A DNA stretch of 64,000 bases from an uncultured Bacteroidales bacterium (GCA_963750735.1 CAVVRY010000014.1:143568-207567); one strand, 5' to 3'. Positions 41,310 to 63,739 are shown, numbered from the stretch's first letter. Notes: generated from the sequence alone by a model not told the origin. Translations and numbers: made by a program.

Positions 41310-42299
41310 TTAATATCTGCTTAACCAACGATATCTCCTTGCATTGTCTCCAAACTTAACTGCAAACATGAATTCATGTGAACCATATGTGTACTTTGAA
41401 ATACTGCTAAAGCCATAGTCAAATGCATATCCAATGTGGAAATTCTCAATCTTAATGCCTGCAAAAATAACAACTGCATCAGGTGATCTATAGGATAAGC
41501 CTCCCCAATAAGATTCTTTATACTCAACCTTACCACTTATATCCATCTGGAAAGTTCTTAGGTTATCAGGTGATTTCATTAAGGCCGATGGGATAATTGA
41601 AAAATTATCGTTTAGTACAAATTCGTATCCGCCTGTTATATAATAATACCGTAGCATCTTATAATTATTATCTCCCTGCTGTCCGATCTTAAACATGGAC
41701 TGAAATAAGTTTATCGCTGAAAATCCAACATAATAGTCTCTTGTCCGGTAAAATACTCCAAAGTTTACATCCGGTATAAAAACCGAACGATCATAATTTA
41801 ACAATACCGGATCATCGGGATCATAAGCATCGAAAAATCCATCTCCACTAATACTCAATTGATAGCCTACTGCAGTTAATCCAAAAGATAACTGTGACTT
41901 TCGCAATTGAATATGGTAGGCATAAGTAAATTGAAGACCTGTTCTGCGAAGCATCCCATTTCGATCCGTAAAGAAGTGACTTCCCAAGCCTACACGGCCA
42001 CTTCTGGAGGGCTTTTGCATCTTTTTCTTAACTGATCTGGATCTCGATATATAACTCTTTTTCAATAGTCTGGTCTGAAAACTTACGGCCTGGGTGCTGG
42101 GCGAATTCTGTAAACCCAACCATTGCTCCCGGGCAGTAACGTTTATGGAAGTATAGCCATCAGCTCCTGCAATCGCCGGGTTTATAAGAAACATATTCAT
42201 CATATACTGGCTATAAACCGGTAATTGCTGTCCAAAGGTGGTTCCAATAATAAGGCTTGCTCCCAGAACCATTAATCCTTTTTTTACAAAATTCATCAT
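41310..42299 (-). CDS. sprF: PorP/SprF-family type IX secretion system membrane protein
   Basis: Signal peptide, then QQLPVYSQYMMNMFLINPAIAG...REQW.G....P.T, the hallmark N-terminus of PorP/SprF proteins. C-terminal beta-barrel ending ...WLSRY. Starts 20 nt downstream of the giant adhesin stop. Confidence 0.9.
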   Translation of the reverse strand: MMNFVKKGLMVLGASLIIGTTFGQQLPVYSQYMMNMFLINPAIAGADGYTSINVTAREQWLGLQNSPSTQAVSFQTRLLKKSYISRSRSVKKKMQKPSRSGRVGLGSHFFTDRNGMLRRTGLQFTYAYHIQLRKSQLSFGLTAVGYQLSISGDGFFDAYDPDDPVLLNYDRSVFIPDVNFGVFYRTRDYYVGFSAINLFQSMFKIGQQGDNNYKMLRYYYITGGYEFVLNDNFSIIPSALMKSPDNLRTFQMDISGKVEYKESYWGGLSYRSPDAVVIFAGIKIENFHIGYAFDYGFSSISKYTYGSHEFMFAVKFGDNARRYRWLSRY

Positions 42300-42319
42300 T
42301 CAACTATAGAATTTAAGAA

Positions 42320-43440
42320 TTATAAAATTATAGTTACATTTCCTGTGATAGGATCACTTCCATCACCCAGAGTCAATATAAACTGGTACGAATCCATTGG
42401 CAATGCTTTTCCTCCATCGGTACCATCCCATGGAATATCATATCCATTTGAGGAACTGTAAACCATCTTACCCCACCTTGTAAAGATTTCCATTCTAGCA
42501 TCCGGATACAATTCAATTCCACGTATTTGCCATGTATCGTTGAATCCATCTCCATTCGGTGTAAACACCTTAGGTATTTCGAGGCAATCGCCATCATAAG
42601 GTACATCAATATCATCTTCAACAACACACATGTTTGCATCCATAACTTCAACATGATATGCACCGCCCTCTAGATTAGTTCTATCCTCAGATGATGAAAG
42701 ATCTTCCCATGTAATACTGTATGGTTCAGTTCCGCCTGAAATATTCAAGTTAATAGCTCCATCTGCATCACCAGGACAACTTGCCGGAGTTACAGTAGGA
42801 TTAATTCTCAATACATCAGGTTGTCCAACATCAAAGGAACCATTCTGACTACATCCATCACTATCAGTGACCGTAACTGTATAGCTACCTGCTGAAAGAT
42901 TAGATACTGTTGAAACAGTCTGGCCATTAAACCATTCATAACTAAATGTTCCACTTCCTCCTGATGCTGATACAGTGGCCTCTCCATCTGAATCTCCGTT
43001 GCAACTTACATCTGTTACAGTTACATTTACTACTATTGCTGCTGGTTCATTCAAGGTAAAGCTTCCAGTTCCTGTTAATAGATTATTATCTGTCACAATT
43101 ACCTCATAATCACCTGCACCCAAAGTATTCTGATCTCTTTGTCCCTGTATAATTCCACCGCCATTTGTCGTACTCCAGTTATAGGTATATGGACTTGTTC
43201 CTCCTGCCACAGTTAAGATTATTGTACCATCGCCTGAAGAATTACAGGATAGATCGGTTGTAATACCAGTTACTGTTACTCCAAGTGGTTCAGTGACTAT
43301 GTAACTTTCATTTTCAACACATCCGTTCGCATCTGTTACAATAACATCATAGGTACCTGCAGTTAAGCCGCTTTGATCTTCATCACCTGGTACCAGACCA
43401 CTTCCATCTGAAGTACTCCAGGAGTATGTATAAGCAATAC
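42320..43440 (-). CDS. giant adhesin C-terminal fragment with type-B T9SS sorting domain
   Basis: The ORF track starts at an internal GTG (43210). My hand translation is open back to ~43440 (..YTYSWSTSDGSGLVPGDEDQSGLTAGTYDVIVTDANGC..). Ends with FTPNGDGFNDTWQI...MDSYQFILTLGDGSDPITGNVTIIL. Confidence 0.85.
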
Positions 43441-43818
43441 ACCACCATTTACATTTAAATCAATTGCACCATCATTTCCGCCATTTAAGCTTACATCTGT
43501 TACAACTGCAGTAAGTACTATTTGGGCTGGTTCAGAAATTGAAATTGTTGATCCAAATACCTCACAACCATTCACATCCCTTACTCCTATATCATAGTTA
43601 CCTGCTCCAAGTCCTGTAAAGATGCCGCCATTGGATACATAGTTTAATCCTCCGTCTACGGAATATTCATAGGGTGATGTTCCGCCTGAAACTACTATCG
43701 ATATAGTTCCATCATTTGCTCCATTACAAGTTAAATCTGTTGATGATTCACTGTCGATACTAATCGCTAGTGGATCTGTTATGGTTAAAGTCGATCCGAA
43801 AATTTCGCATCCATTCAC
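43363..43818 (-). CDS. giant adhesin frame fragment (diverged SprB-type modules)
   Basis: Modules such as TDLTCNGANDGTISIVVSGGTSPYEYSVDGGLNYVSNGGIFTGLGAGNYDIGVRDVNGC. The tail is out of frame after ..NVNGGVL. Confidence 0.8.
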   Translation of the reverse strand: MNGCEIFGSTLTITDPLAISIDSESSTDLTCNGANDGTISIVVSGGTSPYEYSVDGGLNYVSNGGIFTGLGAGNYDIGVRDVNGCEVFGSTISISEPAQIVLTAVVTDVSLNGGNDGAIDLNVNGGVLLIHTPGVLQMEVVWYQVMKIKAA

Positions 43819-44163
43819 ATCTCTTACACCTATATCATAATTACCTGCTGCAAGTCCTGTAAAGCTTCCTCCATTTGATAAATAGTTTAATCCTCCGTCT
43901 ACTGAGTATTCATATGGTGATGTTCCACCTGATACTACTATCGATATAGATCCATCATTCGCTCCATTACAGCTAATGTCTGTTGAACTTCGGAGTCTAT
44001 GTGTTATGGCGACTGGCTCAGTCTACTGATTAAGGTTGATGCCTGCAATGACCTCACAACCATTTACATCTCTTACACTTCCTATATCAGTAATTTCCTG
44101 CACTAAGGCCTATAAAACTGCCACCATTTGATTACATAATTTAATCCACCATCTACGGAATAC

Positions 44164-44799
44164 TCATACGGCTGATGTTCCACCGCTTGCGGTGACCGTT
44201 ACTGTTCCATCATTTGCTCCGTTGCATGTAATATCTGTTGATGCTTCTGAGTCTATTGTTATGGCTGCTGGTTCGGCTATGATCAGGTTGCTGCTTGCAA
44301 CTGGTCCACATCCATTGGCATCTGTTACACTTACTGTATAAGTATTTGCTGGTAAGCTTGTAAATGATCCGGTTCCATTGCTGATTGCTCCGGGGTTCAA
44401 TGTATAGATCAAAGCTCCGGTTCCACCACTGGCTGATACCGTTACTGTTCCATCATTTGCTCCGTTGCAGGTGATATCTGTCGATGCTTCTGAGTCTATG
44501 CTTATCGCTGCTGGTTCTGCTATGATCAGGTTGCTACTTACAACTGGTCCACATCCATTGGCATCGGTTACACTTACTGTATAGCTATTGGCTGAAAGGT
44601 TCGTAAATGATCCGGTTCCATTGCTGATCGCTCCTGGGTTCAATGTATAGATCAAGGCTCCTGTTCCGCCACTGGCTGTTACCGTTACTGTTCCATCATT
44701 TGCTCCGTTGCATGTAATATCTGTCGATGCTTCTGAGTCTATGTTTATCGCTACTGGTTCTGCTATGACTAAGGTTGATACGTTACTTCTGGTCCACAT
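44164..44799 (-). CDS. giant adhesin frame fragment (243-bp array, C-terminal-most copies)
   Basis: About 2.5 modules. Confidence 0.8.
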   Translation of the reverse strand: MWTRSNVSTLVIAEPVAINIDSEASTDITCNGANDGTVTVTASGGTGALIYTLNPGAISNGTGSFTNLSANSYTVSVTDANGCGPVVSSNLIIAEPAAISIDSEASTDITCNGANDGTVTVSASGGTGALIYTLNPGAISNGTGSFTSLPANTYTVSVTDANGCGPVASSNLIIAEPAAITIDSEASTDITCNGANDGTVTVTASGGTSAV

Positions 44800-45284
44800 C
44801 CATTTACATCTGTTACACTTACTGTATAGTTATTTGCTGACAGGTTTATAAATGTTCCGGTTCCATTGCTGATCGCTCCAGGGTTCAAGGTATAGATCAA
44901 GGCTGAGGTTCCACCGCTTGCTGTTACCGTTACTGTTCCATCATTTGCTCCATTGCATGTAATATCTGTTGATGCTTCTGAGTCTATGCTTATCGCTGCT
45001 GGTTCTGCTATGATCAGGTTGCTGCTTGCAACTGGTCCACATCCATTGGCATCGGTTACACTTACTGTATAAGTATTTGCTGGTAAGTTTGTAAATGATC
45101 CGGTTCCATTGCTGATTGCTCCGGGGTTCAATGTATAGATCAAAGCTCCGGTTCCGCCACTTGCGGTTACCGTTACTGTTCCATCATTTGCTCCGTTGCA
45201 GGTAATATCTGTTGATGCTTCTGAGTCTATGCTTATCGCTGCTGGTTCTGCTATGATAAGGTTGAACTTACTTCTGGTCCACAT
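44769..45284 (-). CDS. giant adhesin frame fragment (243-bp array)
   Basis: Two modules. Confidence 0.8.
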   Translation of the reverse strand: MWTRSKFNLIIAEPAAISIDSEASTDITCNGANDGTVTVTASGGTGALIYTLNPGAISNGTGSFTNLPANTYTVSVTDANGCGPVASSNLIIAEPAAISIDSEASTDITCNGANDGTVTVTASGGTSALIYTLNPGAISNGTGTFINLSANNYTVSVTDVNGCGPEVTYQP

Positions 45285-46012
45285 CCATTGGCATCGGTTA
45301 CACTTACTGTATAGCTATTGGCTGACAGGTTCGTAAATGATCCGGTTCCATTGCTGATCGCTCCAGGGTTCAATGTATAGATCAAGGCTCCGGTTCCACC
45401 GCTTGCTGTTACCGTTACTGTTCCATCATTCGCTCCGTTGCAGGTAATATCTGTTGATGCTTCTGAGTCTATGCTTATCGCTGCTGGTTCTGCTATGACT
45501 AAGCTTGAACTTACTTCTGGTCCGCATCCATTGGCATCGGTTACACTTACTGTATAAGTATTGGCTGACAGGTTTGTAAATGATCCGGTTCCATTGCTGA
45601 TCGCTCCGGGGTTCAATGTATAGATCAAAGCTCCGGTTCCGCCACTGGCTGATACTGTTACTGTTCCATCATTTGCTCCGTTGCATGTAATATCTGTTGA
45701 TGCTTCTGAGTCTATGCTTATCGCTGCTGGTTCTGCTATGACTAAGCTTGAACTTACTTCTGGTCCACATCCATTGGCATCAGTTACACTTACTGTATAG
45801 CTATTGGCTGACAGGTTCGTGAATGATCCGGTTCCATTGCTTATCGCTCCTGGGTTCAATGTATAGATCAAGGCTCCGGTTCCGCCACTGGCTGATACTG
45901 TTACTGTTCCATCATTCGCTCCGTTGCATGTAATATCTGTCGATGCTTCTGAGTCTATCGTTATGGCAGCTGGTTCGGCTATGATAAGGTTGAACTTACA
46001 TCTGGTCCGCAT
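45251..46012 (-). CDS. giant adhesin frame fragment (243-bp array)
   Basis: Three modules. Confidence 0.8.
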   Translation of the reverse strand: MRTRCKFNLIIAEPAAITIDSEASTDITCNGANDGTVTVSASGGTGALIYTLNPGAISNGTGSFTNLSANSYTVSVTDANGCGPEVSSSLVIAEPAAISIDSEASTDITCNGANDGTVTVSASGGTGALIYTLNPGAISNGTGSFTNLSANTYTVSVTDANGCGPEVSSSLVIAEPAAISIDSEASTDITCNGANDGTVTVTASGGTGALIYTLNPGAISNGTGSFTNLSANSYTVSVTDANGCGPEVSSTLS

Positions 46013-47073
46013 CCATTGGCGTCGGTTACACTTACTGTATAAGTATTGGCTGACAGGTTGGTAAAGGTTCCGGTTCCATTGCTGATCGCTCCAGGGTTCA
46101 ATGTATAGATCAGGGCTCCGGTTCCGCCACTGGCTGATACTGTTACTGTTCCATCATTTGCTCCGTTGCAGGTAATATCTGTCGATGCTTCTGAGTCTAT
46201 CGTTATGGCAGCCGGTTCGGCTATGACTAAGCTTGAACTTACTTCTGGTCCGCATCCATTGGCGTCGGTTACACTTACTGTATAAGTATTGGCTGACAGG
46301 TTGGTAAAGGTTCCGGTTCCATTGCTGATCGCTCCCGGGTTCAATGTATAGATCAAGGCTCCGGTTCCACCGCTTGCTGTTACTGTTACTGTTCCATCAT
46401 TTGCTCCGTTGCATGTAATATCTGTCGATGCTTCTGAGTCTATTGTTATCGCTGCTGGTTCTGCTATGATAAGCTTGCTACTTACAACTGGTCCACATCC
46501 ATTGGCATCGGTTACACTTACTGTATAGCTATTGGCTGACAGGTTCGTAAAGGTTCCGGTTCCATTGCTTATCGCTCCAGGGTTCAATGTATAGATCAGG
46601 GCTCCGGTTCCACCGCTTGCTGTTACTGTTACTGTTCCATCATTTGCTCCGTTGCATGTAATATCTGTCGATGCTTCTGAGTCTATTGTTATGGCTGCTG
46701 GTTCGGCTATGATCAGGTTGCTGCTTGCAACTGGTCCACATCCATTGGCATCGGTTACACTTACTGTATAGCTATTGGCTGACAGGTTCGTAAATGATCC
46801 GGTTCCATTGCTGATCGCTCCAGGGTTCAATGTATAGATCAAGGCTCCGGTTCCACCGCTTGCTGTTACCGTTACTGTTCCATCATTTGCTCCATTGCAA
46901 GTAATATCTGTTGATGCTTCTGAGTCGATGCTTATCGCTGCTGGTTCTGCTATGATCAGGTTGCTGCTGGCAACTGGTCCACATCCATTGGCATCGGTTA
47001 CACTTACTGTATAGCTATTGGCTGACAGGTTCGTAAAGGTTCCGGTTCCATTGCTGATCGCTCCCGGGTTCAA
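45979..47073 (-). CDS. giant adhesin frame fragment (243-bp array)
   Basis: About 4.5 modules. Confidence 0.8.
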   Translation of the reverse strand: MNPGAISNGTGTFTNLSANSYTVSVTDANGCGPVASSNLIIAEPAAISIDSEASTDITCNGANDGTVTVTASGGTGALIYTLNPGAISNGTGSFTNLSANSYTVSVTDANGCGPVASSNLIIAEPAAITIDSEASTDITCNGANDGTVTVTASGGTGALIYTLNPGAISNGTGTFTNLSANSYTVSVTDANGCGPVVSSKLIIAEPAAITIDSEASTDITCNGANDGTVTVTASGGTGALIYTLNPGAISNGTGTFTNLSANTYTVSVTDANGCGPEVSSSLVIAEPAAITIDSEASTDITCNGANDGTVTVSASGGTGALIYTLNPGAISNGTGTFTNLSANTYTVSVTDANGCGPDVSSTLS

Positions 47074-47168
47074 TGTATAGATCAGGGCTCCGGTTCCGCC
47101 ACTTGCTGTTACCGTTACTGTTCCATCATTCGCTCCATTGCAGGTAATATCTGTTGATGCTTCTGAGT

Positions 47169-47468
47169 CTATGTTATCGCTGCTGGTTCTGCTATGATCA
47201 GGTTGCTACTTGCAACTGGTCCACATCCATTGGCATCGGTTACACTTACTGTATAGCTATTGGCTGACAGGTTCGTAAAGGTTCCGGTTCCATTGCTGAT
47301 CGCTCCAGGGTTCAATGTATAGATCAAGGCTCCGGTTCCGCCACTTGCTGTTACCGTTACTGTTCCATCATTTGCTCCGTTGCATGTAATATCTGTCGAT
47401 GCTTCTGAGTCTATGCTTATCGCTGCTGGTTCTGCTATGATCAGGTTGTACTTGCAACTGGTCCACAT
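47169..47468 (-). CDS. giant adhesin frame fragment (243-bp array)
   Basis: One module. Confidence 0.8.
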   Translation of the reverse strand: MWTSCKYNLIIAEPAAISIDSEASTDITCNGANDGTVTVTASGGTGALIYTLNPGAISNGTGTFTNLSANSYTVSVTDANGCGPVASSNLIIAEPAAIT

Positions 47469-47800
47469 CCATTGGCATCGGTTACACTTACTGTATAGCT
47501 ATTGGCTGACAGGTTCGTAAATGATCCGGTTCCATTGCTGATAGCTCCAGGGTTCAATGTATAGATCAGGGCTCCGGTTCCGCCGCTTGCGGTTACTGTT
47601 ACTGTTCCATCATTTGCTCCGTTGCATGTAATATCTGTTGATGCTTCTGAGTCTATGCTTATCGCTGCTGGTTCTGCTATGACTAAGCTTGAACTTACTT
47701 CTGGTCCACATCCATTGGCATCGGTTACACTTACTGTATAGCTATTGGCTGAAAGGTTTGTAAATGATCCGGTTCCATTGCTGATCGCTCCAGGGTTCAA
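47441..47800 (-). CDS. giant adhesin frame fragment (243-bp array)
   Basis: About 1.5 modules. Confidence 0.8.
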   Translation of the reverse strand: MNPGAISNGTGSFTNLSANSYTVSVTDANGCGPEVSSSLVIAEPAAISIDSEASTDITCNGANDGTVTVTASGGTGALIYTLNPGAISNGTGSFTNLSANSYTVSVTDANGCGPVASTT

Positions 47801-47808
47801 TGTATAGA

Positions 47809-48297
47809 TCAGGCTCCTGTTCCGCCGCTTGCAGTTACCGTTACTGTTCCATCATTTGCTCCGTTACAGGTAATATCTGTTGATGCTTCTGAGTCTATGC
47901 TTATCGCTGCTGGTTCTGCTATGACTAAGCTTGAACTTACTTCTGGTCCACATCCATTGGCATCGGTTACACTTACTGTATAGCTATTGGCTGACAGGTT
48001 GGTGAATGATCCGGTTCCATTGCTTATAGCTCCAGGGTTCAATGTATAGATCAAGGCTCCGGTTCCGCCACTGGCTGATACTGTTACTGTTCCATCATTT
48101 GCTCCATTACAGGTAATATCTGTTGATGCTTCTGAGTCTATGCTTATCGCTGCTGGTTCTGCTATGACTAAGTTTGAACTTACTTCTGGTCCACATCCAT
48201 TGGCATCGGTTACACTTACTGTATAGCTATTGGCTGACAGGTTCGTAAATGATCCGGTTCCATTGCTGATCGCTCCCGGGTTCAATGTATAGATCAA
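47809..48297 (-). CDS. giant adhesin frame fragment (243-bp array)
   Basis: Two modules. Confidence 0.8.
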   Translation of the reverse strand: MIYTLNPGAISNGTGSFTNLSANSYTVSVTDANGCGPEVSSNLVIAEPAAISIDSEASTDITCNGANDGTVTVSASGGTGALIYTLNPGAISNGTGSFTNLSANSYTVSVTDANGCGPEVSSSLVIAEPAAISIDSEASTDITCNGANDGTVTVTASGGTGA

Positions 48298-48337
48298 AGC
48301 TCCGGTTCCGCCACTGGCTGTTACCGTTACTGTTCCA

Positions 48338-48547
48338 TCATTTGCTCCGTTGCAGGTAATATCTGTTGATGCTTCTGAGTCTATTGCTTATCGCTGCTGG
48401 TTCTGCTATGATCAGGTTGCTGCTGAGCTCGTAACTGGTCCACATCCATTGGCATCGGTTACACTTACTGTATAAGCTATTGGCTGACAGGTTCGTAAAT
48501 GATCCGGTTCCATTGCTGATTGCTCCAGGGTTCAAGGTATAGATCAA
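48338..48547 (-). CDS. giant adhesin frame fragment (243-bp array, locally scrambled)
   Basis: Starts in the module frame (IYTLNPGAISNGTGSFTNLSANS), then drifts out of frame; several indels within one repeat unit. Confidence 0.65.
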   Translation of the reverse strand: MIYTLNPGAISNGTGSFTNLSANSLYSKCNRCQWMWTSYELSSNLIIAEPAAISNRLRSINRYYLQRSK

Positions 48548-48630
48548 GGCTCCGGTTCCACCACTTGCTGATACCGTTACTGTTCCATCATTTGCTCCGT
48601 TGCATGTAATATCTGTTGATGCTTCTGAGT

Positions 48631-49419
48631 CTATGTTATGGCTGCTGGTTCTGCTATGATCAGGTTGCTACTTACTTCTGGTCCACATCCATTGGCATCG
48701 GTTACACTTACTGTATAGCTATTGGCTGACAGGTTCGTAAATGATCCGGTTCCATTGCTTATAGCTCCAGGGTTCAATGTATAGATCAAGGCTCCGGTTC
48801 CACCACTTGCGGTTACCGTTACTGTTCCATCATTTGCTCCGTTGCATGTAATATCTGTTGATGCTTCTGAGTCTATGCTTATGGCTGCTGGTTCTGCTAT
48901 GATCAGGTTGCTACTTACTTCTGGTCCACATCCATTGGCATCGGTTACACTTACTGTATAGCTATTGGCTGACAGGTTGGTGAATGATCCGGTTCCATTG
49001 CTTATAGCTCCAGGGTTCAATGTATAGATCAAGGCTCCGGTTCCGCCGCTTGCTGTTACCGTTACTGTTCCATCATTTGCTCCATTACAGGTAATATCTG
49101 TTGATGCTTCTGAGTCTATGCTTATCGCTGCTGGTTCTGCTATGACTAAGCTTGAACTTACTTCTGGTCCACATCCATTGGCATCGGTTACACTTACTGT
49201 ATAGCTATTGGCTGACAGGTTGGTGAATGATCCGGTTCCATTGCTGATCGCTCCCGGGTTCAATGTATAGATCAGGGCTCCGGTTCCGCCACTGGCTGAT
49301 ACCGTTACTGTTCCATCATTCGCTCCATTGCAGGTAATATCTGTTGATGCTTCTGAGTCTATGCTTATCGCTGCTGGTTCTGCTATGATCAGGTTGCTGA
49401 ACTGACAACTGGTCCACAT
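48631..49419 (-). CDS. giant adhesin frame fragment (243-bp array)
   Basis: Three modules, bounded by frame breaks. Confidence 0.8.
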   Translation of the reverse strand: MWTSCQFSNLIIAEPAAISIDSEASTDITCNGANDGTVTVSASGGTGALIYTLNPGAISNGTGSFTNLSANSYTVSVTDANGCGPEVSSSLVIAEPAAISIDSEASTDITCNGANDGTVTVTASGGTGALIYTLNPGAISNGTGSFTNLSANSYTVSVTDANGCGPEVSSNLIIAEPAAISIDSEASTDITCNGANDGTVTVTASGGTGALIYTLNPGAISNGTGSFTNLSANSYTVSVTDANGCGPEVSSNLIIAEPAAIT

Positions 49420-49661
49420 CCATTGGCATCGGTTACACTTACTGTATAGCTATTGGCTGACAGGTTCGTAAATGTTCCGGTTCCATTGCTTATAGCTCCA
49501 GGGTTCAATGTATAGATCAAGGCTCCGGTTCCGCCACTTGCTGTTACCGTTACTGTTCCATCATTTGCTCCGTTGCATGTAATATCTGTTGATGCTTCTG
49601 AGTCGATGCTTATGGCTGCTGGTTCTGCTATGATCAGGTTGAACTTACTTCTGGTCCACAT
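49389..49661 (-). CDS. giant adhesin frame fragment (243-bp array)
   Basis: One module, bounded by linker frame breaks. Confidence 0.8.
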   Translation of the reverse strand: MWTRSKFNLIIAEPAAISIDSEASTDITCNGANDGTVTVTASGGTGALIYTLNPGAISNGTGTFTNLSANSYTVSVTDANGCGPVVSSAT

Positions 49662-52908: not shown

Positions 52909-53092
52909 TGTATAGATCAGGGCTCCGGTTCCGCCGCTTGCAGTTACCGTTACTGTTCCATCATTTGCTCCGTTGCAGGTAATATCTGTTGATGCTTCTG
53001 AGTCTATGCTTATCGCTGCTGGTTCGGCTATGACTCAGGTTGTGCTGACAACTGGTCCACATCCATTGGCATCGGTTACACTTACTGTATAG

Positions 53093-56000: not shown

Positions 56001-56385
56001 AGTGAACCAAATGTGCCTGAAGCCTGGTAAGTTGTTCCTCCGTCTATTGAGTATTCATATGGGGCGGTCCCATCTGAGCCGGCTACCGTTACTGTTCCTG
56101 TTGCATCTCCGAAGCAGGCTACATCTGTCTGTGCTGTTATGCTTCCGCTTAGGGCTGCTGCCGGTTGGGTAATCGTTACCGCTACATCAAAGGTACATAG
56201 GCCTGCATCTCTTACTCTAACTGTATAGTTGTTGGCTGATAATCCTGCAAAAGTACCTGAAGCCTGGTAAGTTGTTCCTCCGTCTATTGAGTATTCATAT
56301 GGAGCTGTGCCATCTGATCCGGCTACCGTTACTGTTCCTGTTGCATCTCCGAAGCAGGCTACATCTGTTTGTGCTGTTATGCTTC
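53093..56385 (-). CDS. giant adhesin frame fragment spanning the junction of the 240-bp and 243-bp arrays
   Basis: The ORF track lists only 53093..54361 because the first start-type codon is a TTG at 54361. My hand translation stays open upstream (..AGLCIFDVAVTITQPGATLSVTGVITNVSVAGGNDGAIALTVIGGTSPYTFAWSTLDGSG..). The repeat marker ccggttgggt recurs exactly every 240 nt from 54481 to 56161, so there is no net indel until ~56387. Confidence 0.75.
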
Positions 56386-56425
56386 CTAAAGTGCTGCTGC
56401 CGGTTGGGTGATCGTTACCGCTACA

Positions 56426-56929
56426 TCAAAGGTACATAGGCCTGCATCTCTTACTCTGACTGTATAATTGTTCGCTGATAAACGCAAATGTACCTGAAGC
56501 CTGGTAAGTTGTTCCTCCGTCTATTGAGTATTCATATGGGGCGGTCCCATCTGAACCGGCTACCGTTATTGTTCCTGTTGCATCTCCAAAGCAGGCTACA
56601 TCTGTCTGTGCTGTTATGCTTCCGCTTAGGGCTGCTGCCGGTTGGGTAATCGTTACCGCTACATCAAAGGTACAACCATTTAAATCCTGAACCGTAACAA
56701 TGTAATTATTTGCAATTAGACCACTGAATGTACCTGAAGCCTGGTAAGCTCCTCCATTTAAACTGTATTGGTATGTTGGAACACCTCCTGCTCCTGCCAC
56801 AGTAGCTGATCCTGTTGCATCGCCGAAGCAGGCTATATTCGTTTGGGCAGAAATAGAACCAGATACAGCTGAGGCTGGCTGAGTAATCGTTACATTAACA
56901 TCATAAGTACAGGAATTGGCATCACGCAC
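56426..56929 (-). CDS. giant adhesin frame fragment (240-bp module array)
   Basis: Same modules; nearly identical to residues of fragment 57088..58218. The tail is out of frame (FISEQLYSQSKRCRPMYL*). Confidence 0.8.
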   Translation of the reverse strand: MRDANSCTYDVNVTITQPASAVSGSISAQTNIACFGDATGSATVAGAGGVPTYQYSLNGGAYQASGTFSGLIANNYIVTVQDLNGCTFDVAVTITQPAAALSGSITAQTDVACFGDATGTITVAGSDGTAPYEYSIDGGTTYQASGTFAFISEQLYSQSKRCRPMYL

Positions 56930-57087
56930 AGTAACGATGTAATTATTAGCACTTAAACTACTGAAGGTGCCCGAAAGTTGGAATGATCCACCGTCCAGAC
57001 TATATTGATATGGTGCAGTTCCATCTGAGCCGGCTACCGTTACTGTTCCGGTTGCATCTCCAAAGCAGGCTACATCGGTTTGTGCTG

Positions 57088-58218
57088 TTATGCTTCCGCT
57101 AATGCTGCGGCTGGTTGGGTAATCGTTACCGCTACATCAAAGGTACATAGGCCTGCATCTCTTACTCTAACTGTATAATTATTCGCTGACAGAGAACCAA
57201 ATGTGCCTGATGCCTGGTAGGTTGTTCCTCCGTCTATTGAGTATTCATATGGGGCGGTCCCATCTGAACCGGCTACCGTAATTGTTCCTGTTGCATCTCC
57301 AAAGCAGGCTACATCTGTCTGTGCTGTTATGCTTCCGCTTAGGGCTGCTGCCGGTTGGGTAATCGTTACCGCTACATCAAAGGTACAACCATTTAAATCC
57401 TGAACCGTAACAATGTAATTATTTGCAATTAGACCACTGAATGTACCAGAAGCCTGGTAAGCTCCTCCATTTAAACTGTATTGGTATGTTGGAACACCTC
57501 CTGCTCCTGCCACAGTAACTGATCCTGTTGCATCGCCGAAGCAGGCTATATTCGTTTGGGCAGAAATAGAACCAGATACAGCTGAGGCTGGCTGAGTAAT
57601 CGTTACATTAACATCATAAGTACAGGAATTGGCATCACGCACAGTAACGATGTAATTATTAGCACTTAAACTACTGAAGGTGCCCGAAAGTTGGAATGAT
57701 CCACCGTCCAGACTATATTGATATGGTGCAGTTCCATCTGAGCCGGCTACCGTTACTGTTCCGGTTGCATCTCCGAAGCAAGCTACATCTGTCTGCGCCG
57801 TTATACTTCCTGAAAGAGCTGCGGCTGGTTGGGTGATTGTTACCGCTACATCAAAGGTACATAGGCCTGCATCTCTTACTCTGACTGTATAATTATTGAC
57901 TGATAATCCTGCAAATGTGCCTGATGCCTGGTAAGTTGTTCCTCCGTCTATTGAGTATTCATATGGAGCTGTGCCATCTGATCCGGCTACCGTTACTGTT
58001 CCTGTTGCATCGCCGAAGCAGGCTACATTGGTCTGGGAAGCAATAATGCCTGTTAGGGCTGCTACCGGTTGGGTAATCGTTACTGCTACATCAAAGGTAC
58101 ATAGGCCTGCATCTCTTACTCTGACTGTATAATTGTTCGCTGACAGGGAACCTAAATGTGCCTGAAGCCTGGTAGGTCGTACCACCATCAATTGAGTATT
58201 CATATGGAGCTGTGCCAT
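57088..58218 (-). CDS. giant adhesin frame fragment (240-bp module array)
   Basis: Continues the 80-aa ACFGDATG...YEYSIDGGTTYQASGTF modules. Overlaps the previous fragment in another frame, so it is not an independent gene. Confidence 0.8.
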   Translation of the reverse strand: MAQLHMNTQLMVVRPTRLQAHLGSLSANNYTVRVRDAGLCTFDVAVTITQPVAALTGIIASQTNVACFGDATGTVTVAGSDGTAPYEYSIDGGTTYQASGTFAGLSVNNYTVRVRDAGLCTFDVAVTITQPAAALSGSITAQTDVACFGDATGTVTVAGSDGTAPYQYSLDGGSFQLSGTFSSLSANNYIVTVRDANSCTYDVNVTITQPASAVSGSISAQTNIACFGDATGSVTVAGAGGVPTYQYSLNGGAYQASGTFSGLIANNYIVTVQDLNGCTFDVAVTITQPAAALSGSITAQTDVACFGDATGTITVAGSDGTAPYEYSIDGGTTYQASGTFGSLSANNYTVRVRDAGLCTFDVAVTITQPAAALAEA

Positions 58219-61200
58219 CTGAGCCGGCTACCGTTACTATTCCTGTTGCATCGCCGAAGCAGGCTACATTGCTCTGTGATGATATGCTTCCTGTTAGAGG
58301 GGCTGCAGGTTGTGTAATGGTAATATTCACATTGTATATACATCCATTTAAATCACGAACAATTACAAGGTAACTTTGAGCCGTTAAACCAGAGTATGTC
58401 CCAGAAGCCTGATATGGAGCTCCATCAAGACTATAAGTATATGGAGATGTTCCACCTAATCCCGATACTGAAACCGAACCGCTGGCATCTCCAAAACAAG
58501 CAACATTGGTTTGCGAATCTATGTTCCCTGACAGGGCAGTTGCAGGTTGAGTAATAGTAACTGCAACATCATATATACATGAATTATTATCTCGAATTCG
58601 TACTGTATAATTGTTGGCTGATAATCCTGTGAAGGTTCCTGATACCTGATATGTAGAACCTCCGTTAATACTGTATTGGTAAGGTGCCGTGCCACCTGAA
58701 CCAGCAATTGTAACACTCCCATCTGCACCACCAAAACAAGCTACATTGGTTTGAGCAGATATACTTCCGGTAAGGGCAGTTGCTGGCTGTGTAATGTTTA
58801 ATGCAACATCGAATGTACAAAGATTGGTATCTTGAATTCTAACAGTGTAATTATTGGCAGATAGAGAACCAAATGTACCTGATCCCTGGTAAGTAGTCCC
58901 ACCATCTATACTGTATAAGTATCCAGGAGTTCCACCTGATCCATTTATAGTTACACTTCCTGAGGCATCTCCGAAACAGCTAACATTGGTTTGTGAACCG
59001 ATACTTCCTGAAAGAGGGGAACCAGGTTGGCTTATGTTAACTGCAACATCAAAAGTACACAGATTAGCATCCCGAATGGTTACTGTATAGTTATTGGCAG
59101 ATAAAGAGTTAAATGTACCTGCGCCCTGATAAGTTGTTCCGCCATCTATGGTAAATTGATATGGAGGAGTTCCATCTGTACCGATTACAGTTACTGACCC
59201 AGTCGCATCACCGAAACAGGCTACATTCGTTTGCGCAGTAATACTTCCTGAAAGAGCTACAGCAGGTTCTGTAATGATAACAGCAACATCAAAGGTACAT
59301 AGGCCTGCATCTCTTACTCTGACTGTATAGTTGTTCGCTGATAAGCCTGCAAATGTGCCTGAGGCCTGGTAAGTCGTTCCTCCGTCTATTGAGTATTCAT
59401 ATGGGGCTGTGCCATCGGACCCGGCAACAGTTACAGAGCCATTTGCTCCTCCAAAACATGCAACATTGATCTGAGAACTTATTCCACCTGAGAGAGCAGT
59501 AGCAGGCTGAGTTATGGTCACTGCAATATCAAAAGTACACAATGCTGCATCGCGCACAGTGATTGTATAATTATTCGCTGAAAGGGTACCAAATGTTCCT
59601 GAGGCCTGGTATGTGGCACCCCCATCAATACTATATTCATATGGTGCTGTGCCATCTGAGCCGGCTACCGTCACTGTTCCTGTAGCATCACCGAAGCAGG
59701 CTACATTGGTCTGAGAACTAATACTTCCTGCAAGAGACAAAGGTTCAGTAACTACAATATCTTTTGTTCCAATACAACCATTAACATCCTGTATCAAAAC
59801 AGTATATGTTCCGGCAGTCAGTCCGGTTTGATCTTCATCAGTTGTAACCACGCCACTGCCATCAATTGTACTCCATAATATATTAAATGGTGCTGTTCCA
59901 CCCGATATAGTAATATCAATTTCGCCATTATTACCTCCATTACAAGTGACATTAGTAACACTCTCTGAAATTGATATAGCTGCTGGTTGAGTTACTGAGT
60001 AAAGCCCATTAGTAATACAGCCATTGGCATCGGTTACTGTAACACCGTATCCCCCTGCGGTAAGTCCACTAATATCTTCCGTTGTTTCACTATTTGTCCA
60101 AACAAAAGAATAAGGGGCAGTACCATCGGAAACTGTTAGATTGATCTCACCATTGCTTCCACCAAAGCAGGTTACATTGGTTATAAACTCAGAAACAGTA
60201 AATGGAGCACAAACAAAGCCAAGTCCGAATTGTGTGCTAGTAGTAATTCCACCCGTTAAATTATTTCTGTAAACGGATGGATTGCTGGCATCAACATGAG
60301 TTCCATCAAAAGTCCAATTACCAGCATTGGTTCTTTTTAAAATTCTTGTATTTATATTAACCTGCCTACTGGTAAAATCCTGAGCTAGCAGCTCAAGATT
60401 ATAGTCCGTTGTAGTCAATCCACCTGCTACAGAAAAATCCCAGTAACCGTCAGTAAATTGGTTGGTGACTGTTGTAGCAACATCCACAAGTGGTAAACCA
60501 GCCGATCCAGGATCGGCGGCTATAAATTCTGCAATCAACGCACCACCATTTAAGTTTGTAAAATTCACAATTGCAGGTCTATAAGAACTAGCAGTACCTA
60601 TTGGAAATAAATAATCAGTTCCTGTACTACCTGCCCACCTCTGGATCTGTCCGATCACAGTTCCTGCGGAATGCACCAATGTTCCTTCAGTTCCGGCCCC
60701 GGCGGCTGTACCTATCTGTAGGATGTTCCCCTGAGTAAATATGTTACCACTATTCATTGTTAAAGTCCCTGTGGATCCAATATTTACATTAGAATTTAAC
60801 AGGATACTTCCTGAAAGTTTATTAGCTGTGAGGTTATTAAAACTAAGTATCCCTGTGGTAGTTTGGTCCGCAGTTCCATCAAATGTTACAGTTCCTGACT
60901 GTTGTAAGAAAGATCCACCCAGCAACGAAAAATCACCGCCCAGGTTAATAGAATAGTTGTTGGCTGCTGAAACATCCAGGCTACCATTTAATATTGTGAG
61001 GTTACCTAAAACAGTAAGGTTGGAGACCATTGTTTTGGTGCCTGCCTGGTCAAAAGAAATATTGTAATATGTTGAAGAAAGAGGATCTTTTATATTCTGT
61101 GCGGCAGCGCCATTATATACAACTGTATTCCCGGTAGCTGTTGCATCTAATACACCATTGGATGTCATTAATGTTCCGCTTACCTCAAGGTTAGAATTGG

Positions 61201-63739
61201 TGGAATTTATCCATTTCGAAGTAGCATCAGCATCCAGCAGATTACCTCCAATAGAAATGCTTCCTTCATTTACGATTGTTACTGATGATCCCAGGGTCAG
61301 GTTACTAGTCGTCAGTGAAAGAACAGCAGTAGGAGCAATAGTTTTATCCCCAGAGGTAATATCAACATCCTCGCTTATTGTTCCAATTCCATCAATTATT
61401 TTATCAACTCCATCAAGATATAGGGTATTAGAACCATTACCCCAATAAGTTCCGTTATTTGTAAAATCTCCATAGATATAAAAATTCCTATTCCTTGAAT
61501 CTAGGTCACCATTAATCTCAATAATTAGGTTGTTAATTTCTCGGGGCTGACCATTTGGAAGGGTCACTGAATGCCCACCATTTATCCTGACATTTTCAGT
61601 TGGTAAAGGAATGCAACCACAATCCCAGGTGCCAGTACTGCTCCATGATCCGGAATTAATACTTTCAATTATTACATATTTATTTACATTTAGGTTCTCA
61701 GCAGGAGCTGCTGTATAACCAGGTTTTTGGGCAACTACACTAACTGTACCCAAACCGGCGCTTCCCCAATCAATTGTTATGCTATTCGTGTTTCCACCCG
61801 AAGCCTGACTTCCACCTGTAATGGTCCAGTAATATAAATATCCCGACTGTAATGGCACAGAGTAAGTCACGCCGTTGGTATTTTCAGAAATTGAGGATCT
61901 ACCAGTTATTGAAATCGGTGCTACTGAATGAATGGTTACAGGAAGAAGTACAGGTGCACTGTTTGTACAAGTATTGGATTCTACTACCTGGACATAAGCA
62001 TTGTCCATACCTGTGGCTCCCCAGTTTACAGTAATACTGTTTGTATTGGTTCCTGATGCCTGGCTTCCACCAAATATAGTCCAGGAATATGTGTTTGGAG
62101 GATTATTTATAACTGAATAACTAACTCCTGTCTGACTGATATCCACTTCAATGGCTCCAGTAATTGCAGAGGCTATTGGTCGTGAGCAGTTTGTGGAATC
62201 TCCCAGAGCAAATTCAGCTGGTAAAGTACCTAATCCAACCCGATTGACCAGGGAACCAGTAGCATCTAAATGGGTACCATCGGTAACCCATGAACTCCCT
62301 GAGTTTGGCCTTGATAATATTCTCGTAGCAGCGTTAATTGGGAAAGAGGTCAATCCATTTCCATCCAGGGATAGATCGAAAGTATTTGCACCTCCAAGGT
62401 TAAATCCATTTAATTCGCTTAAAGTCCAGTAACCCTCAACAAACGTATTGTGTATGGTTATTGTACCGTCAACCAGGGGTAATCCATTATTTCCAGGATC
62501 ATTTTCAATGAACTCTGAGATAACACTTCCGCCTGAATTCAGGCCATTTAAAGTAAAATATATCGTTTTCTGACTGGAGGAACCTACAGGGAAAATAACA
62601 GTACCGGTAGAGTTTATCCATCTTTCAAATTTTCCATTTATATAACCAGATATAGGATTTAATGTGCCAACTGAAACTGTGCTGGTTCCCAGTGTTAGTT
62701 TGTTCGATCCAGTTTGTACATTCCCACCTGATAGCTGAAGTGTGTTTGATGCGACTACATCGTTTGCAAGGACTAAATTTCCGCCAGATTTATTGACGAT
62801 TAATCTATAAAAAGTTTCTATTGTCGAATTTGTTATTGTTTGGTCGGAAGCTCCTGAAAAGATAACATCTCCAGTACCTTCATCAAAAAGGGATTCATTC
62901 GTCCAATTTCCAGCCACATTTATATTGTAGTTATTACTAACTAGCGTGGGGGAATTGTTAATTTCCATATTTCCAGCCAAGATCAAATCTGAGCCCATAT
63001 TCTTATTGCCGGATCCACTAATATTAAGGTTGTAATAGGTATTGGATGAGGGGCTTTTTACAGTTTGTAGCCCAGTATTGTTATATGATACAGTATTGCC
63101 AGTTGAAGAAGCGCTTAAAATACCATTTAAGAGAAGTACTCCATTTATTGTAAGATAAGAATCATTGGAGTTGGTCCAAATTGAAGTAGTGGCATTTGTA
63201 CCAACCATATCTCCACTAATCTCAACCGCTCCATTGTTTGTGACAGTTACCGCTGAGCCAATATTTACTGGGCCAGAGATAAACAAATCAGCTGAACTAC
63301 TCACGCTCAGATTGGAATTTATTCGAAAGTAAGCTCCAGTTCCGTTAATAATAATGTTTCCAAGCCCATCCAATACGCCTCCGGTGAGTATTAAATCACT
63401 ACCAGCAGCAACTTTTGAAGTATATGTTCCGTTAACTGTAAGATTTCCAGATACTCTCGTGATTCGATTGTCACCATTTAAAATACCACCTGCATCGATC
63501 GTCAGATTTTGTATTCTGGCACCCTGTGCACCGTTCACATTATTGGTTACTGTTGTTCCATTTGCAATAATTGCATGATCATTTATCCCTGGGGAAGATC
63601 CCAGGTCCCAGGTTGACCCAGAAGTCCAGTTTCCTGATTGAATGGAAGTGTAGGTGGTTTGACTAAAAGAGGCTTTGAAATTTCCTGAAATTATCAGAAT
63701 CAAACTTATTAGTAAAAAGAACTTAATTCTTGATGGCAT
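58091..63739 (-). CDS. giant adhesin, N-terminal fragment (signal peptide, duplicated beta-helix-like region, first ~9 Ig-like modules)
   Basis: 1882-aa ORF. It ends where the module sequence GTF(A/G)(G/S)LSANNYTV switches to out-of-frame RFPVSEQLYSQSKRCRPMYL*. Confidence 0.9.
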   Translation of the reverse strand: MPSRIKFFLLISLILIISGNFKASFSQTTYTSIQSGNWTSGSTWDLGSSPGINDHAIIANGTTVTNNVNGAQGARIQNLTIDAGGILNGDNRITRVSGNLTVNGTYTSKVAAGSDLILTGGVLDGLGNIIINGTGAYFRINSNLSVSSSADLFISGPVNIGSAVTVTNNGAVEISGDMVGTNATTSIWTNSNDSYLTINGVLLLNGILSASSTGNTVSYNNTGLQTVKSPSSNTYYNLNISGSGNKNMGSDLILAGNMEINNSPTLVSNNYNINVAGNWTNESLFDEGTGDVIFSGASDQTITNSTIETFYRLIVNKSGGNLVLANDVVASNTLQLSGGNVQTGSNKLTLGTSTVSVGTLNPISGYINGKFERWINSTGTVIFPVGSSSQKTIYFTLNGLNSGGSVISEFIENDPGNNGLPLVDGTITIHNTFVEGYWTLSELNGFNLGGANTFDLSLDGNGLTSFPINAATRILSRPNSGSSWVTDGTHLDATGSLVNRVGLGTLPAEFALGDSTNCSRPIASAITGAIEVDISQTGVSYSVINNPPNTYSWTIFGGSQASGTNTNSITVNWGATGMDNAYVQVVESNTCTNSAPVLLPVTIHSVAPISITGRSSISENTNGVTYSVPLQSGYLYYWTITGGSQASGGNTNSITIDWGSAGLGTVSVVAQKPGYTAAPAENLNVNKYVIIESINSGSWSSTGTWDCGCIPLPTENVRINGGHSVTLPNGQPREINNLIIEINGDLDSRNRNFYIYGDFTNNGTYWGNGSNTLYLDGVDKIIDGIGTISEDVDITSGDKTIAPTAVLSLTTSNLTLGSSVTIVNEGSISIGGNLLDADATSKWINSTNSNLEVSGTLMTSNGVLDATATGNTVVYNGAAAQNIKDPLSSTYYNISFDQAGTKTMVSNLTVLGNLTILNGSLDVSAANNYSINLGGDFSLLGGSFLQQSGTVTFDGTADQTTTGILSFNNLTANKLSGSILLNSNVNIGSTGTLTMNSGNIFTQGNILQIGTAAGAGTEGTLVHSAGTVIGQIQRWAGSTGTDYLFPIGTASSYRPAIVNFTNLNGGALIAEFIAADPGSAGLPLVDVATTVTNQFTDGYWDFSVAGGLTTTDYNLELLAQDFTSRQVNINTRILKRTNAGNWTFDGTHVDASNPSVYRNNLTGGITTSTQFGLGFVCAPFTVSEFITNVTCFGGSNGEINLTVSDGTAPYSFVWTNSETTEDISGLTAGGYGVTVTDANGCITNGLYSVTQPAAISISESVTNVTCNGGNNGEIDITISGGTAPFNILWSTIDGSGVVTTDEDQTGLTAGTYTVLIQDVNGCIGTKDIVVTEPLSLAGSISSQTNVACFGDATGTVTVAGSDGTAPYEYSIDGGATYQASGTFGTLSANNYTITVRDAALCTFDIAVTITQPATALSGGISSQINVACFGGANGSVTVAGSDGTAPYEYSIDGGTTYQASGTFAGLSANNYTVRVRDAGLCTFDVAVIITEPAVALSGSITAQTNVACFGDATGSVTVIGTDGTPPYQFTIDGGTTYQGAGTFNSLSANNYTVTIRDANLCTFDVAVNISQPGSPLSGSIGSQTNVSCFGDASGSVTINGSGGTPGYLYSIDGGTTYQGSGTFGSLSANNYTVRIQDTNLCTFDVALNITQPATALTGSISAQTNVACFGGADGSVTIAGSGGTAPYQYSINGGSTYQVSGTFTGLSANNYTVRIRDNNSCIYDVAVTITQPATALSGNIDSQTNVACFGDASGSVSVSGLGGTSPYTYSLDGAPYQASGTYSGLTAQSYLVIVRDLNGCIYNVNITITQPAAPLTGSISSQSNVACFGDATGIVTVAGSDGTAPYEYSIDGGTTYQASGTFRFPVSEQLYSQSKRCRPMYL

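What the first reader, a model, noticed from the sequence alone, without database searches (positions are those of the whole stretch)
41310..63739. A single ~21.4-kb SprB-like giant adhesin gene with a dedicated PorP/SprF partner fills one third of the window
Seen in sequence: there is a signal peptide at 63739. More than 20 abutting or overlapping minus-strand ORFs all encode the same Ig-like ~80-aa modules, each with a C.G..(D/N)G..-V..SGGT SprB-repeat motif. The C-terminal ~90 aa (IPKVFTPNGDGFNDTWQIRG...GNVTIIL) match the gliding-motility-associated type-B T9SS sorting domain. A PorP/SprF gene starts 20 nt downstream. Established knowledge: in Flavobacterium johnsoniae the ~6,500-aa adhesin SprB is followed by sprF, and type-B CTD cargo needs a cognate PorP/SprF-like protein for T9SS export. 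Inference: if the frame is repaired, this is one ~7,140-aa surface filament or adhesin. Its module set and N-terminal region are not simply SprB-like and may define its binding specificity.
Basis: partly seen in the sequence, partly recalled or inferred. Interest (0 to 1): 0.7.

Follow-up and report, generated by a model that had tools for sequence, protein, structure and literature searches.

The report
Giant SprB-repeat adhesin with dedicated carrier
This is one very long (about 7,100 amino acids) surface-fibre gene of a marine-sediment Bacteroidota bacterium, followed by the gene for its own outer-membrane carrier; it is a known kind of secretion pair, and the many breaks in its reading frame look like assembly errors.

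Summary
Minus strand 63739-42320 is a chain of 26 open segments. It encodes a signal peptide, a 1,150-aa N-terminal head, 73 SprB-type units of about 80 aa, and a T9SS type-B sorting domain (TIGR04131, 72.6 bits against a cutoff of 35). A full-length PorP/SprF gene (TIGR03519, 250.8 bits) starts 20 nt downstream.

The 25 or more frame breaks lie only in the repeat arrays (58.2-43.4 kb). They sit where two repeat subtypes differ, and the shifted copies are chimeras of the two subtypes. Contigs of near-identical strains in public sediment metagenomes restore the frame wherever they span a break. I read the breaks as consensus or polishing artefacts and the gene as intact (about 0.75).

Nine relatives in Bacteroidota MAGs have uninterrupted genes of 1,809-2,994 aa with the same head, CTD and downstream carrier. 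This copy is the longest seen.

It is not simply SprB/SprF. The head is an uncharacterised double beta-solenoid module that also occurs on type-A CTD proteins. The carrier has no cysteine, so it lacks the Cys-X-Cys tail that ties F. johnsoniae SprF to the gliding track.

Verdict: a new member of a known kind, of moderate interest.

The parts
42320..63739 (-). Conceptual single gene for a ~7,139-codon T9SS type-B surface fibre; as assembled it is interrupted by at least 25 frame switches
   Evidence: domain content
63659..63739 (-). Sec-type signal peptide (27 aa, MPSRIKFFLLISLILIISGNFKASFSQ)
   Evidence: by inspection; the position is conserved in homolog alignments
62174..63658 (-). Head module 1 (aa 28-522): about 30 short strands in a beta-solenoid-like pattern, then a long hairpin and a beta-sandwich
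   Evidence: AF2 pLDDT 96.2, pTM 0.90; no significant PDB match; weak phage parallel-beta-helix matches
61679..62173 (-). Two PKD-like domains (PF19408 PKD_6)
   Evidence: Foldseek tandem-Ig matches
60209..61678 (-). Head module 2, 38% identical to module 1
   Evidence: BLASTP E 3e-70; AF2 model
42602..60190 (-). Stalk of 73 SprB-type units of about 80 aa
   Evidence: unit HMM; PF13573
54477..58318 (-). 240-nt repeat array (16 copies), including a 3-unit (714-nt) higher-order duplication at 57861-56437
   Evidence: 688 of 711-714 positions identical
44177..54003 (-). 243-nt repeat array (40 copies; mean pairwise DNA identity 92%, protein 94.5%); holds most of the frame breaks
43990..44190 (-). 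Corrupted unit with about 10 extra single bases relative to paralogous units and to metagenome contigs
43434..43435 (.). One-base deletion that switches the frame in a non-repeated unit; contigs from six metagenomes carry an extra A here and read through
42323..42580 (-). T9SS type-B C-terminal sorting domain
   Evidence: PF13585 75.9 bits and TIGR04131 72.6 bits; 60% identical to the CTD of L010
41310..42299 (-). PorP/SprF-family outer-membrane carrier (329 aa, no cysteine, tail GDNARRYRWLSRY)
63839..63866 (-). Best promoter-like match upstream of the start codon (sigma-70 consensus only; weak evidence for a Bacteroidota)

Best explanation
One operon encodes a cell-surface fibre and its dedicated carrier.

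Proposed mechanism (all steps inferred from domain content and published work on the family):
1. The ~7,100-aa protein crosses the inner membrane by Sec, using its signal peptide.
2. Its type-B C-terminal domain is recognised at the type IX secretion translocon.
3. It is handed to the PorP/SprF-like beta-barrel encoded 20 nt downstream.
4. It stays bound to that barrel, which anchors it in the outer membrane.
5. A stalk of 73 SprB-type repeats, roughly 0.2-0.3 um long, holds a two-lobed beta-solenoid head with two PKD-like domains away from the cell. The head most likely does the binding.

The 25 or more frame breaks are errors of a long-read assembly whose consensus or polishing mixed reads from different near-identical repeat copies. 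In the organism the gene is most likely intact.

The carrier has no cysteine. It therefore cannot make the SprF-GldK type disulfide to the gliding track. I predict, with lower confidence (about 0.5), a static or only loosely track-coupled adhesin rather than a SprB-like propelled gliding adhesin.
For: Domain content
- SprB repeats throughout, CHU_C/TIGR04131 at the extreme C-terminus, and a full-length PorP/SprF 20 nt downstream.

Conserved pair in relatives
- Nine relatives have uninterrupted genes of 1,809-2,994 aa with the same head (about 50% identity) and CTD (60% identity).
- Each has a carrier gene 21-223 nt downstream that is 47-53% identical to this one.

Frame breaks look like artefacts
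- All 25 switches lie within 58227-43366. None lies in the 5.6-kb unique 5' part, the 3' end, the carrier gene or the other 33 genes of the window. Under a uniform rate within the gene, P is about 1e-4.
- In the 243-nt array, 9 of 16 indels fall in one 7-nt stretch of the unit (P about 1e-10).
- Every indel sits where the two repeat subtypes differ at several adjacent bases, and the shifted copies are hybrids of the two subtypes.
- In-frame hybrids also occur, for example GTFELLSANNY.
- One unit carries about 10 extra single bases.
- Contigs of near-identical strains restore the frame at 43434 (six metagenomes), at 56387 (two) and through 44024-44172 (two). Run X5 holds 74% of the window's 31-mers at 30-40 kb.
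- Contig cover falls to zero exactly at the first break, 58146-58187, between flanks covered hundreds-fold.
- Clean units differ mainly at third codon positions: 69% of differences, and 74% of differing codons are synonymous. The array therefore evolved as coding sequence.

Published support for the mechanism
- Type-B substrates stay bound to a dedicated PorP/SprF-like carrier (PMC9143113, PMC12618676, PMC12635249).
- Residual indels and repeat misassembly in long-read assemblies are well described (PMC13577107).

Carrier
- No cysteine.
- None of the 150 closest family representatives, and none of the nine syntenic orthologs, has C-x-C in the tail.
Against: - No reads from the source sample were available, so the artefact reading is indirect. 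The metagenome contigs come from related strains, not demonstrably the same one.
- The break at 43434 lies in a unit that is not a near-identical repeat and is not in a homopolymer. The hybrid-consensus explanation does not cover it.
- Eight of the most similar 240-nt units (56377-54467) carry no break.
- Repeat copy number may itself be wrong: metagenome contigs join 43749 to 44004, which is one unit fewer.
- The static-anchor prediction is weakened because no porE-like gene lies next to the carrier here or in relatives. PMC9143113 postulated that pairs without PorE are the mobile ones.
- T9SS core genes are not in the window.
Confidence: 0.75

Rival explanations
1. The frame breaks are real. 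In this strain the gene is a decaying pseudogene, and at most a 1,882-aa N-terminal fragment without a sorting domain is made.
For: The sequence as given has at least 25 frame switches. The break at 43434 is in a unique, non-homopolymer context. Giant repeat adhesins are often lost or phase-varied in strains.
Against: The breaks are confined to the repeat arrays and recur at the same unit positions as subtype hybrids. There is a cluster of about 10 single-base insertions within 200 nt. No nonsense substitutions were seen apart from those made by paired indels. Every metagenome contig that spans a break reads through it. The carrier gene and the unique parts of the gene are intact.
Confidence: 0.17
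2. It is the SprB orthologue of this lineage: the main gliding adhesin, propelled along the cell on the GldJKN track through its SprF-like carrier.
For: It has the same overall design as sprB-sprF: a giant SprB-repeat protein, a type-B CTD and an adjacent PorP/SprF gene. No porE-like gene lies beside the carrier, as at sprF (PMC9143113). Some non-SprB type-B adhesins also ride the track (PMC12618676).
Against: The carrier has no cysteine. SprF Cys324/Cys326 are invariant in its close homologs and are required for the GldK disulfide and for sustained movement (PMC12635249). The head module is shared with type-A CTD proteins, which are not track-coupled. Relatives have unrelated stalks (HYR_4C) and unrelated upstream genes.
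Confidence: 0.2
3. Several independent adjacent genes, each encoding a shorter SprB-repeat protein.
For: Gene callers would report more than 20 ORFs.
Against: Only the first ORF has a signal peptide and only the last has a sorting domain. ORF boundaries fall inside repeat units. There is no excess of promoter-like or terminator-like sites inside the region. Relatives have a single gene.
Confidence: 0.02

Closest known systems
SprB-SprF of Flavobacterium johnsoniae (gliding adhesin and its carrier)
   Same: A giant protein (SprB is 6,497 aa, from my own knowledge) built of SprB repeats, a type-B CTD, and a PorP/SprF-family gene immediately downstream. The carrier anchors the adhesin at the surface (PMC9143113, PMC12635249).
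   Different: The carrier lacks the C-terminal Cys-X-Cys (no cysteine at all). The N-terminal 1,150 aa form a separate head module that also occurs on type-A CTD proteins. Whether sprC/sprD-like genes lie upstream cannot be seen, because the window ends 261 nt upstream. No SprB or SprF sequence was at hand for direct comparison.
Fjoh_3952-Fjoh_3951 and other non-SprB type-B adhesin/shuttle pairs of F. johnsoniae
   Same: A type-B CTD putative adhesin genetically linked to a cognate PorP/SprF-like shuttle. Fjoh_3952 forms static foci, which shows that type-B pairs need not feed the gliding machinery (PMC12618676).
   Different: This protein is far larger and carries a different head.
Uninterrupted homologs in Bacteroidota MAGs (loci L002, L010, L015, L018, L019, L022, L023, L032, L037)
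   Same: Same signal peptide and head (about 50% identity), same type-B CTD (60% identity), and a carrier downstream (47-53% identity, cysteine-poor, RRYRWLNxY tail).
   Different: They are 1,809-2,994 aa, against about 7,139 aa here. At least in L010 the stalk is made of HYR_4C/HYR domains with few SprB repeats. Here two near-identical SprB-unit arrays (16 and 40 copies) have expanded.
GhpA grappling-hook protein of Aureispira (PDB 9flp, 9flu, 9g8b and others)
   Same: A giant fibre of tandem Ig-like domains. Foldseek matches the PKD-like pair of the head region (E about 1e-4).
   Different: The resemblance is only a generic tandem-Ig one (TM about 0.1 over the query). There is no evidence of homology in the head or the CTD.

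Membership tests
SprB-repeat proteins (Pfam PF13573) | Multiple SprB repeats scoring above the gathering threshold | tested here: met
   266.8, 399.2, 229.9, 99.1 and 99.1 bits against a cutoff of 28 in five segments; 73 units by a unit HMM
T9SS type-B cargo | Type-B sorting domain at the extreme C-terminus (TIGR04131 / PF13585) | tested here: met
   72.6 bits against a cutoff of 35 and 75.9 bits against 27; covers residues 294-377 of the last 379-aa segment
T9SS type-B cargo | N-terminal Sec signal peptide | tested here: met
   Charged n-region, 12-residue hydrophobic core and small residues before Q27. Judged by inspection only; no predictor was available.
T9SS type-B cargo | Cognate PorP/SprF-like gene adjacent | tested here: met
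   20 nt downstream on the same strand; conserved in nine relatives
T9SS type-B cargo | Genome encodes the T9SS core (SprA/Sov, GldK/L/M/N and others) | not testable with these tools
   None of these genes lies in the window. An S8 peptidase with a type-A sorting domain at 7709-9352 suggests that a T9SS exists.
PorP/SprF family (TIGR03519 / PF11751) | Full-length match above the curated cutoff | tested here: met
   250.8 bits against a cutoff of 90.55, profile positions 5-292 of 292; PF11751 E 6e-75
SprB/SprF gliding adhesin system in the strict sense | Carrier C-tail with an invariant Cys-X-Cys that forms the disulfide to GldK (PMC12635249) | tested here: not met
   No cysteine in the 329-aa protein. 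None of the 150 nearest representatives has C-x-C in the last 30 aa, and none of the nine syntenic orthologs has it.
SprB/SprF gliding adhesin system in the strict sense | sprC and sprD upstream in the same operon (my own knowledge of F. johnsoniae) | not testable with these tools
   The window ends 261 nt upstream of the start codon. In relatives the upstream gene is a metallophosphoesterase (L019) or another cargo-carrier pair (L022).
SprB/SprF gliding adhesin system in the strict sense | Helical movement along the cell; needed for gliding | not testable with these tools
   Requires experiment.
Static type-B adhesins anchored through PorP-PorE (postulate of PMC9143113) | porE-like gene (OmpA-type peptidoglycan-binding lipoprotein) next to the porP-like gene | tested here: not met
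   The neighbours are a histidine kinase and a sigma-54 regulator on the opposite strand. In relatives they are a 468-aa protein with no Pfam match and an Exo_endo_phos_3 protein.

The most novel reading that the evidence does not exclude
A previously uncharacterised family of T9SS surface fibres carries a duplicated beta-solenoid head with no solved structural relative. The head is mounted on interchangeable stalks (SprB repeats, HYR domains) and interchangeable sorting signals (type A or type B). Here the stalk is extended to about 7,100 aa by recent expansion of near-identical repeats, and the fibre is held by a cysteine-free carrier that cannot be disulfide-linked to the gliding track. On this reading it is a very long, static tether for attachment to particles or other cells in sediment, with a reach that varies between strains.
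Probability: 0.4. Interest if true: 0.5.

Novelty: new member of a known kind. Interest (0 to 1): 0.35.

Why it matters
This is a practical warning. Giant repeat adhesins in long-read MAGs are shredded into dozens of pseudo-ORFs by consensus errors. The result is missed or mis-annotated genes and inflated pseudogene counts.

Biologically, the locus adds a clear example of a type-B cargo-carrier pair outside Flavobacterium. Its carrier lacks the track-coupling cysteines, which makes it a useful natural contrast to SprF when asking which type-B adhesins are propelled and which are static.

The conserved head module is widespread in sediment Bacteroidota and has unknown ligand specificity. It would be a reasonable target for structural and binding studies.

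Tried and rejected
- The look-up of the window's own 1,882-aa ORF in the contig index found nothing, so neither the source contig beyond the window nor the upstream genes could be read.
I used the representative library instead.
- The genome scan with the 50-sequence alignment failed for lack of a conserved stretch. It worked with 9 closer sequences.
- No Nanopore-labelled run holding the sequence could be listed, so the spanning-read test could not be run.
- The PDB sequence search with the carrier gave nothing.
- Foldseek with the whole 1,163-aa head model returned only generic tandem-Ig hits. With module 1 alone nothing was significant in the PDB, and BFVD gave only weak beta-helix tail proteins.
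- A loose test of whether indels lie within 2 nt of a polymorphic column was uninformative, because 68% of unit columns qualify. I replaced it with the clustering test.
- A first count of variable codons was distorted by units with compensating indels and was redone on 24 clean units.
- Homopolymer slippage was considered as the cause of the breaks and rejected: the indels are not in homopolymer runs.
- Programmed frameshifting or phase variation was considered and rejected: there are too many sites, no slippery or simple-repeat context, and hybrid sequences at the breaks.
Full report
**What is in the sequence**

Between 63739 and 42320 the minus strand carries 22 ORFs of at least 80 aa that abut or overlap. 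A minimal stop-free path from the ATG at 63739 to the stop at 42322-42320 needs 26 open segments, that is 25 frame switches. The first segment is an intact 1,882-aa ORF. Translations of all segments show the same kind of ~80-aa unit.

- Pfam finds the SprB repeat (PF13573) in every segment tested, at E 1e-28 to 1e-122.
- The last segment ends in CHU_C (PF13585, 75.9 bits) and the NCBIfam type-B sorting domain TIGR04131 (72.6 bits, cutoff 35).
- The ORF 42299-41310 matches PorP/SprF over its full length: PF11751 at E 6e-75, and TIGR03519 at 250.8 bits against a cutoff of 90.55.
- It starts 20 nt after the stop codon of the big gene.

The total is 7,139 codons.

**Anatomy of the protein**

- A 27-aa Sec-type signal peptide comes first (by inspection).
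- Two ~570-aa modules follow. They are 38% identical to each other (E 3e-70).
- Two PKD_6 domains sit between the modules.
- Then come 73 SprB-type units from 60190 to 42602. They include a 240-nt array of 16 copies at 58318-54477 and a 243-nt array of 40 copies at 54003-44177.
- The 243-nt units average 92% pairwise DNA identity.
- The 240-nt array contains a three-unit, 714-nt duplication.
- The type-B CTD occupies 42580-42323.
- AlphaFold2 with 49 homologs models the 1,163-aa head at pLDDT 90 and module 1 alone at pLDDT 96 with pTM 0.90.
- Module 1 shows about 30 short strands in a solenoid-like pattern, then a long hairpin and a beta-sandwich.
- Foldseek finds no significant solved relative for module 1. 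The best PDB hit is a phage tailspike beta-helix at E 0.04. BFVD gives only weak parallel-beta-helix tail proteins with TM up to 0.3.
- The whole-head model matches only generic tandem-Ig proteins through its PKD pair.

**Are the frame breaks real?**

Several independent lines say probably not.

1. Location. All 25 switches lie between 58227 and 43366. None lies in the 5.6-kb unique 5' part, the 3' end, the carrier gene or the 33 other genes of the window, which are densely packed and give full-length domain matches. If the breaks were spread evenly over the gene, the chance of this is about 1e-4.
2. Position within the unit. In the 243-nt array, 9 of 16 indels fall in one 7-nt stretch of the unit and 4 more in a 3-nt stretch (P about 1e-10). 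These are not homopolymer runs.
3. Hybrid sequence. The indels sit exactly where two repeat subtypes differ at several adjacent bases, for example GAAGTAAGTTCAAGCTTAGTC against GTTGCAAGCAGCAACCTGATC. The shifted copies are hybrids such as GAAGTAAGTA-CAACCTGATC. The 240-nt array behaves the same way at its two multi-base variant sites, and it also holds in-frame hybrids that give odd residues such as GTFELLSANNY. This is what a consensus built from reads of different copies produces.
4. A corrupted unit. The unit at 44190-43990 has about 10 extra single bases relative to its paralogs.
5. Natural populations read through.
   - Public salt-marsh and sediment metagenomes hold this organism. Run X5 contains 74% of the sampled 31-mers of the housekeeping part of the window.
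   - Contigs spanning 43434 in runs X1, X2, X3, X5 and X10, and a loose end in X4, carry one extra A. It restores the frame to ..NGGVLSYTYSWS...
   - Two runs carry an extra G after 56387, at another break.
   - Two runs lack the extra bases of the corrupted unit.
   - Contig cover drops to zero exactly over the first break (58146-58187), between flanks covered hundreds-fold.
6. Coding history. The 24 clean 243-nt units differ mainly at third codon positions (69% of differences), and 74% of differing codons are synonymous. The array has been maintained as coding sequence.

Residual indels and repeat misassembly in long-read assemblies are a well-known problem (PMC13577107).

Some points cut the other way. 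I had no reads from the source sample, and no Nanopore-labelled run could be listed. The 43434 deletion lies in a unit that is not a near-identical repeat. The copy number of the units may also be wrong: metagenome contigs join 43749 to 44004, which is one unit fewer. I put the artefact reading at about 0.75-0.8 and a true pseudogene at about 0.17.

**Relatives**

- The head region finds 169 proteins, all from Bacteroidota-type metagenome bins. Some have SprB repeats and a type-B CTD, and many have a type-A CTD (PF18962).
- A scan of species-representative genomes gave 40 loci. The closest is 77% identical ("Bacteroidota bacterium MAG244"). Others are labelled Bacteroidales, Rikenellaceae, Salinivirgaceae or Cyclobacteriaceae.
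- Nine loci hold uninterrupted genes of 1,809-2,994 aa that end in a type-B CTD, and one runs off its contig at 3,901 aa or more.
- All nine are followed, 21-223 nt downstream, by a PorP/SprF-like gene that is 47-53% identical to the window's.
- In L010 the head is about 50% and the CTD 60% identical to the window's, but the stalk is made of HYR_4C/HYR domains with few SprB repeats.
- The family therefore keeps the head, the CTD and the carrier, and swaps or resizes the stalk. The window's copy is the longest seen.

**How it most likely works**

From published work, type-B substrates pass the SprA translocon, are taken by their own PorP/SprF-like carrier, and remain bound to it at the cell surface (PMC9143113, PMC12618676, PMC12635249). 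The domain content and the conserved gene pair fit that model. The secretion and anchoring steps are inferred, not shown here. The head at the distal N-terminus is the likely binding part, which is also an inference.

**Is it SprB/SprF?**

It works like that pair, but it fails one defining feature.

- F. johnsoniae SprF has a periplasmic C-tail Cys324-X-Cys326 that is invariant in close homologs. It makes a disulfide to GldK of the moving track. It is needed for sustained helical movement and gliding, but not for the carrier function (PMC12635249).
- The window's carrier has no cysteine at all.
- None of its 150 closest family representatives has C-x-C in the tail, and none of the nine syntenic orthologs does. 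Their conserved tail is ..GDNARRYRWLNRY.
- Not all type-B adhesins go to the gliding machinery. Fjoh_3952 with Fjoh_3951 is static (PMC12618676).

This points to a static or weakly coupled adhesin. The counter-argument is that no porE-like gene lies beside the carrier, and PMC9143113 suggested that PorE-less pairs are the mobile ones. I hold the static prediction at about 0.5.

**Independent genes?**

This is unlikely. Only the first ORF has a signal peptide and only the last has a CTD. ORF boundaries fall inside units. Promoter-like and terminator-like sites inside the region are fewer than in shuffled sequence.

**Verdict**

This is a real single gene pair of a known kind: a giant type-B T9SS adhesin with its dedicated carrier. 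It is most likely intact in nature and was broken up by the assembly. Three features stand out: its size, an uncharacterised and widespread head module, and a cysteine-free carrier. I rate it a new member of a known kind, with moderate interest.

Noticed in passing
window 30203-32745 (minus strand); L010 11245-13675; L019 18929-21368: A 485-aa protein with no Pfam match (45% identical to its counterpart in L010) and an Exo_endo_phos_3 protein follow the carrier gene directly in relatives. In the window they lie 8.6 kb further on, behind six inserted genes: a histidine kinase, a sigma-54 regulator, HlyD/ABC/OEP efflux genes and an amidohydrolase. This looks like a synteny remnant, and the pair may be linked in function to the adhesin locus.
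   Followed up: partly
window 15012-16883 (minus strand): A 623-aa protein fuses an N-terminal cyclic-nucleotide-binding domain to a class-II fumarase/aspartase-type lyase (Lyase_1 + FumaraseC_C). This domain combination looks unusual to me (my own judgement, not checked).
   Followed up: no
window 7709-9352 (plus strand): An S8 subtilase carries a type-A T9SS sorting domain (Por_Secre_tail). It is a second T9SS substrate in the window and indirect evidence that the organism has a T9SS.
   Followed up: no
window 10883-14763 and 16985-20515: Two tandem TPR-HisKA-HATPase sensor kinases have overlapping stop and start codons. Nearby is a 1,176-aa multi-PAS hybrid histidine kinase.
   Followed up: no
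L022 3795-9778: In one relative a second SprB-repeat/CHU_C cargo (1,655 aa) with its own PorP/SprF gene lies directly upstream of the homologous pair. Cargo-carrier pairs can therefore occur in tandem.
   Followed up: partly
L001 10001-18703: In a 459-kb metagenome contig ('contig_57337'; I could not confirm the sequencing platform) the homologous cargo gene, and even its PorP/SprF gene, are split into several ORFs. This suggests the same kind of assembly damage elsewhere.
   Followed up: no
window 44000-58000: The repeat arrays have 45-47% G+C against about 35% in the rest of the window, and a strong A-over-T excess on the coding strand. Both follow from the Thr/Ala/Gly/Ser/Asn-rich units and are not evidence of foreign origin.
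   Followed up: partly
window 26817-28577 (plus strand): A 586-aa ORF has no Pfam match.
   Followed up: no
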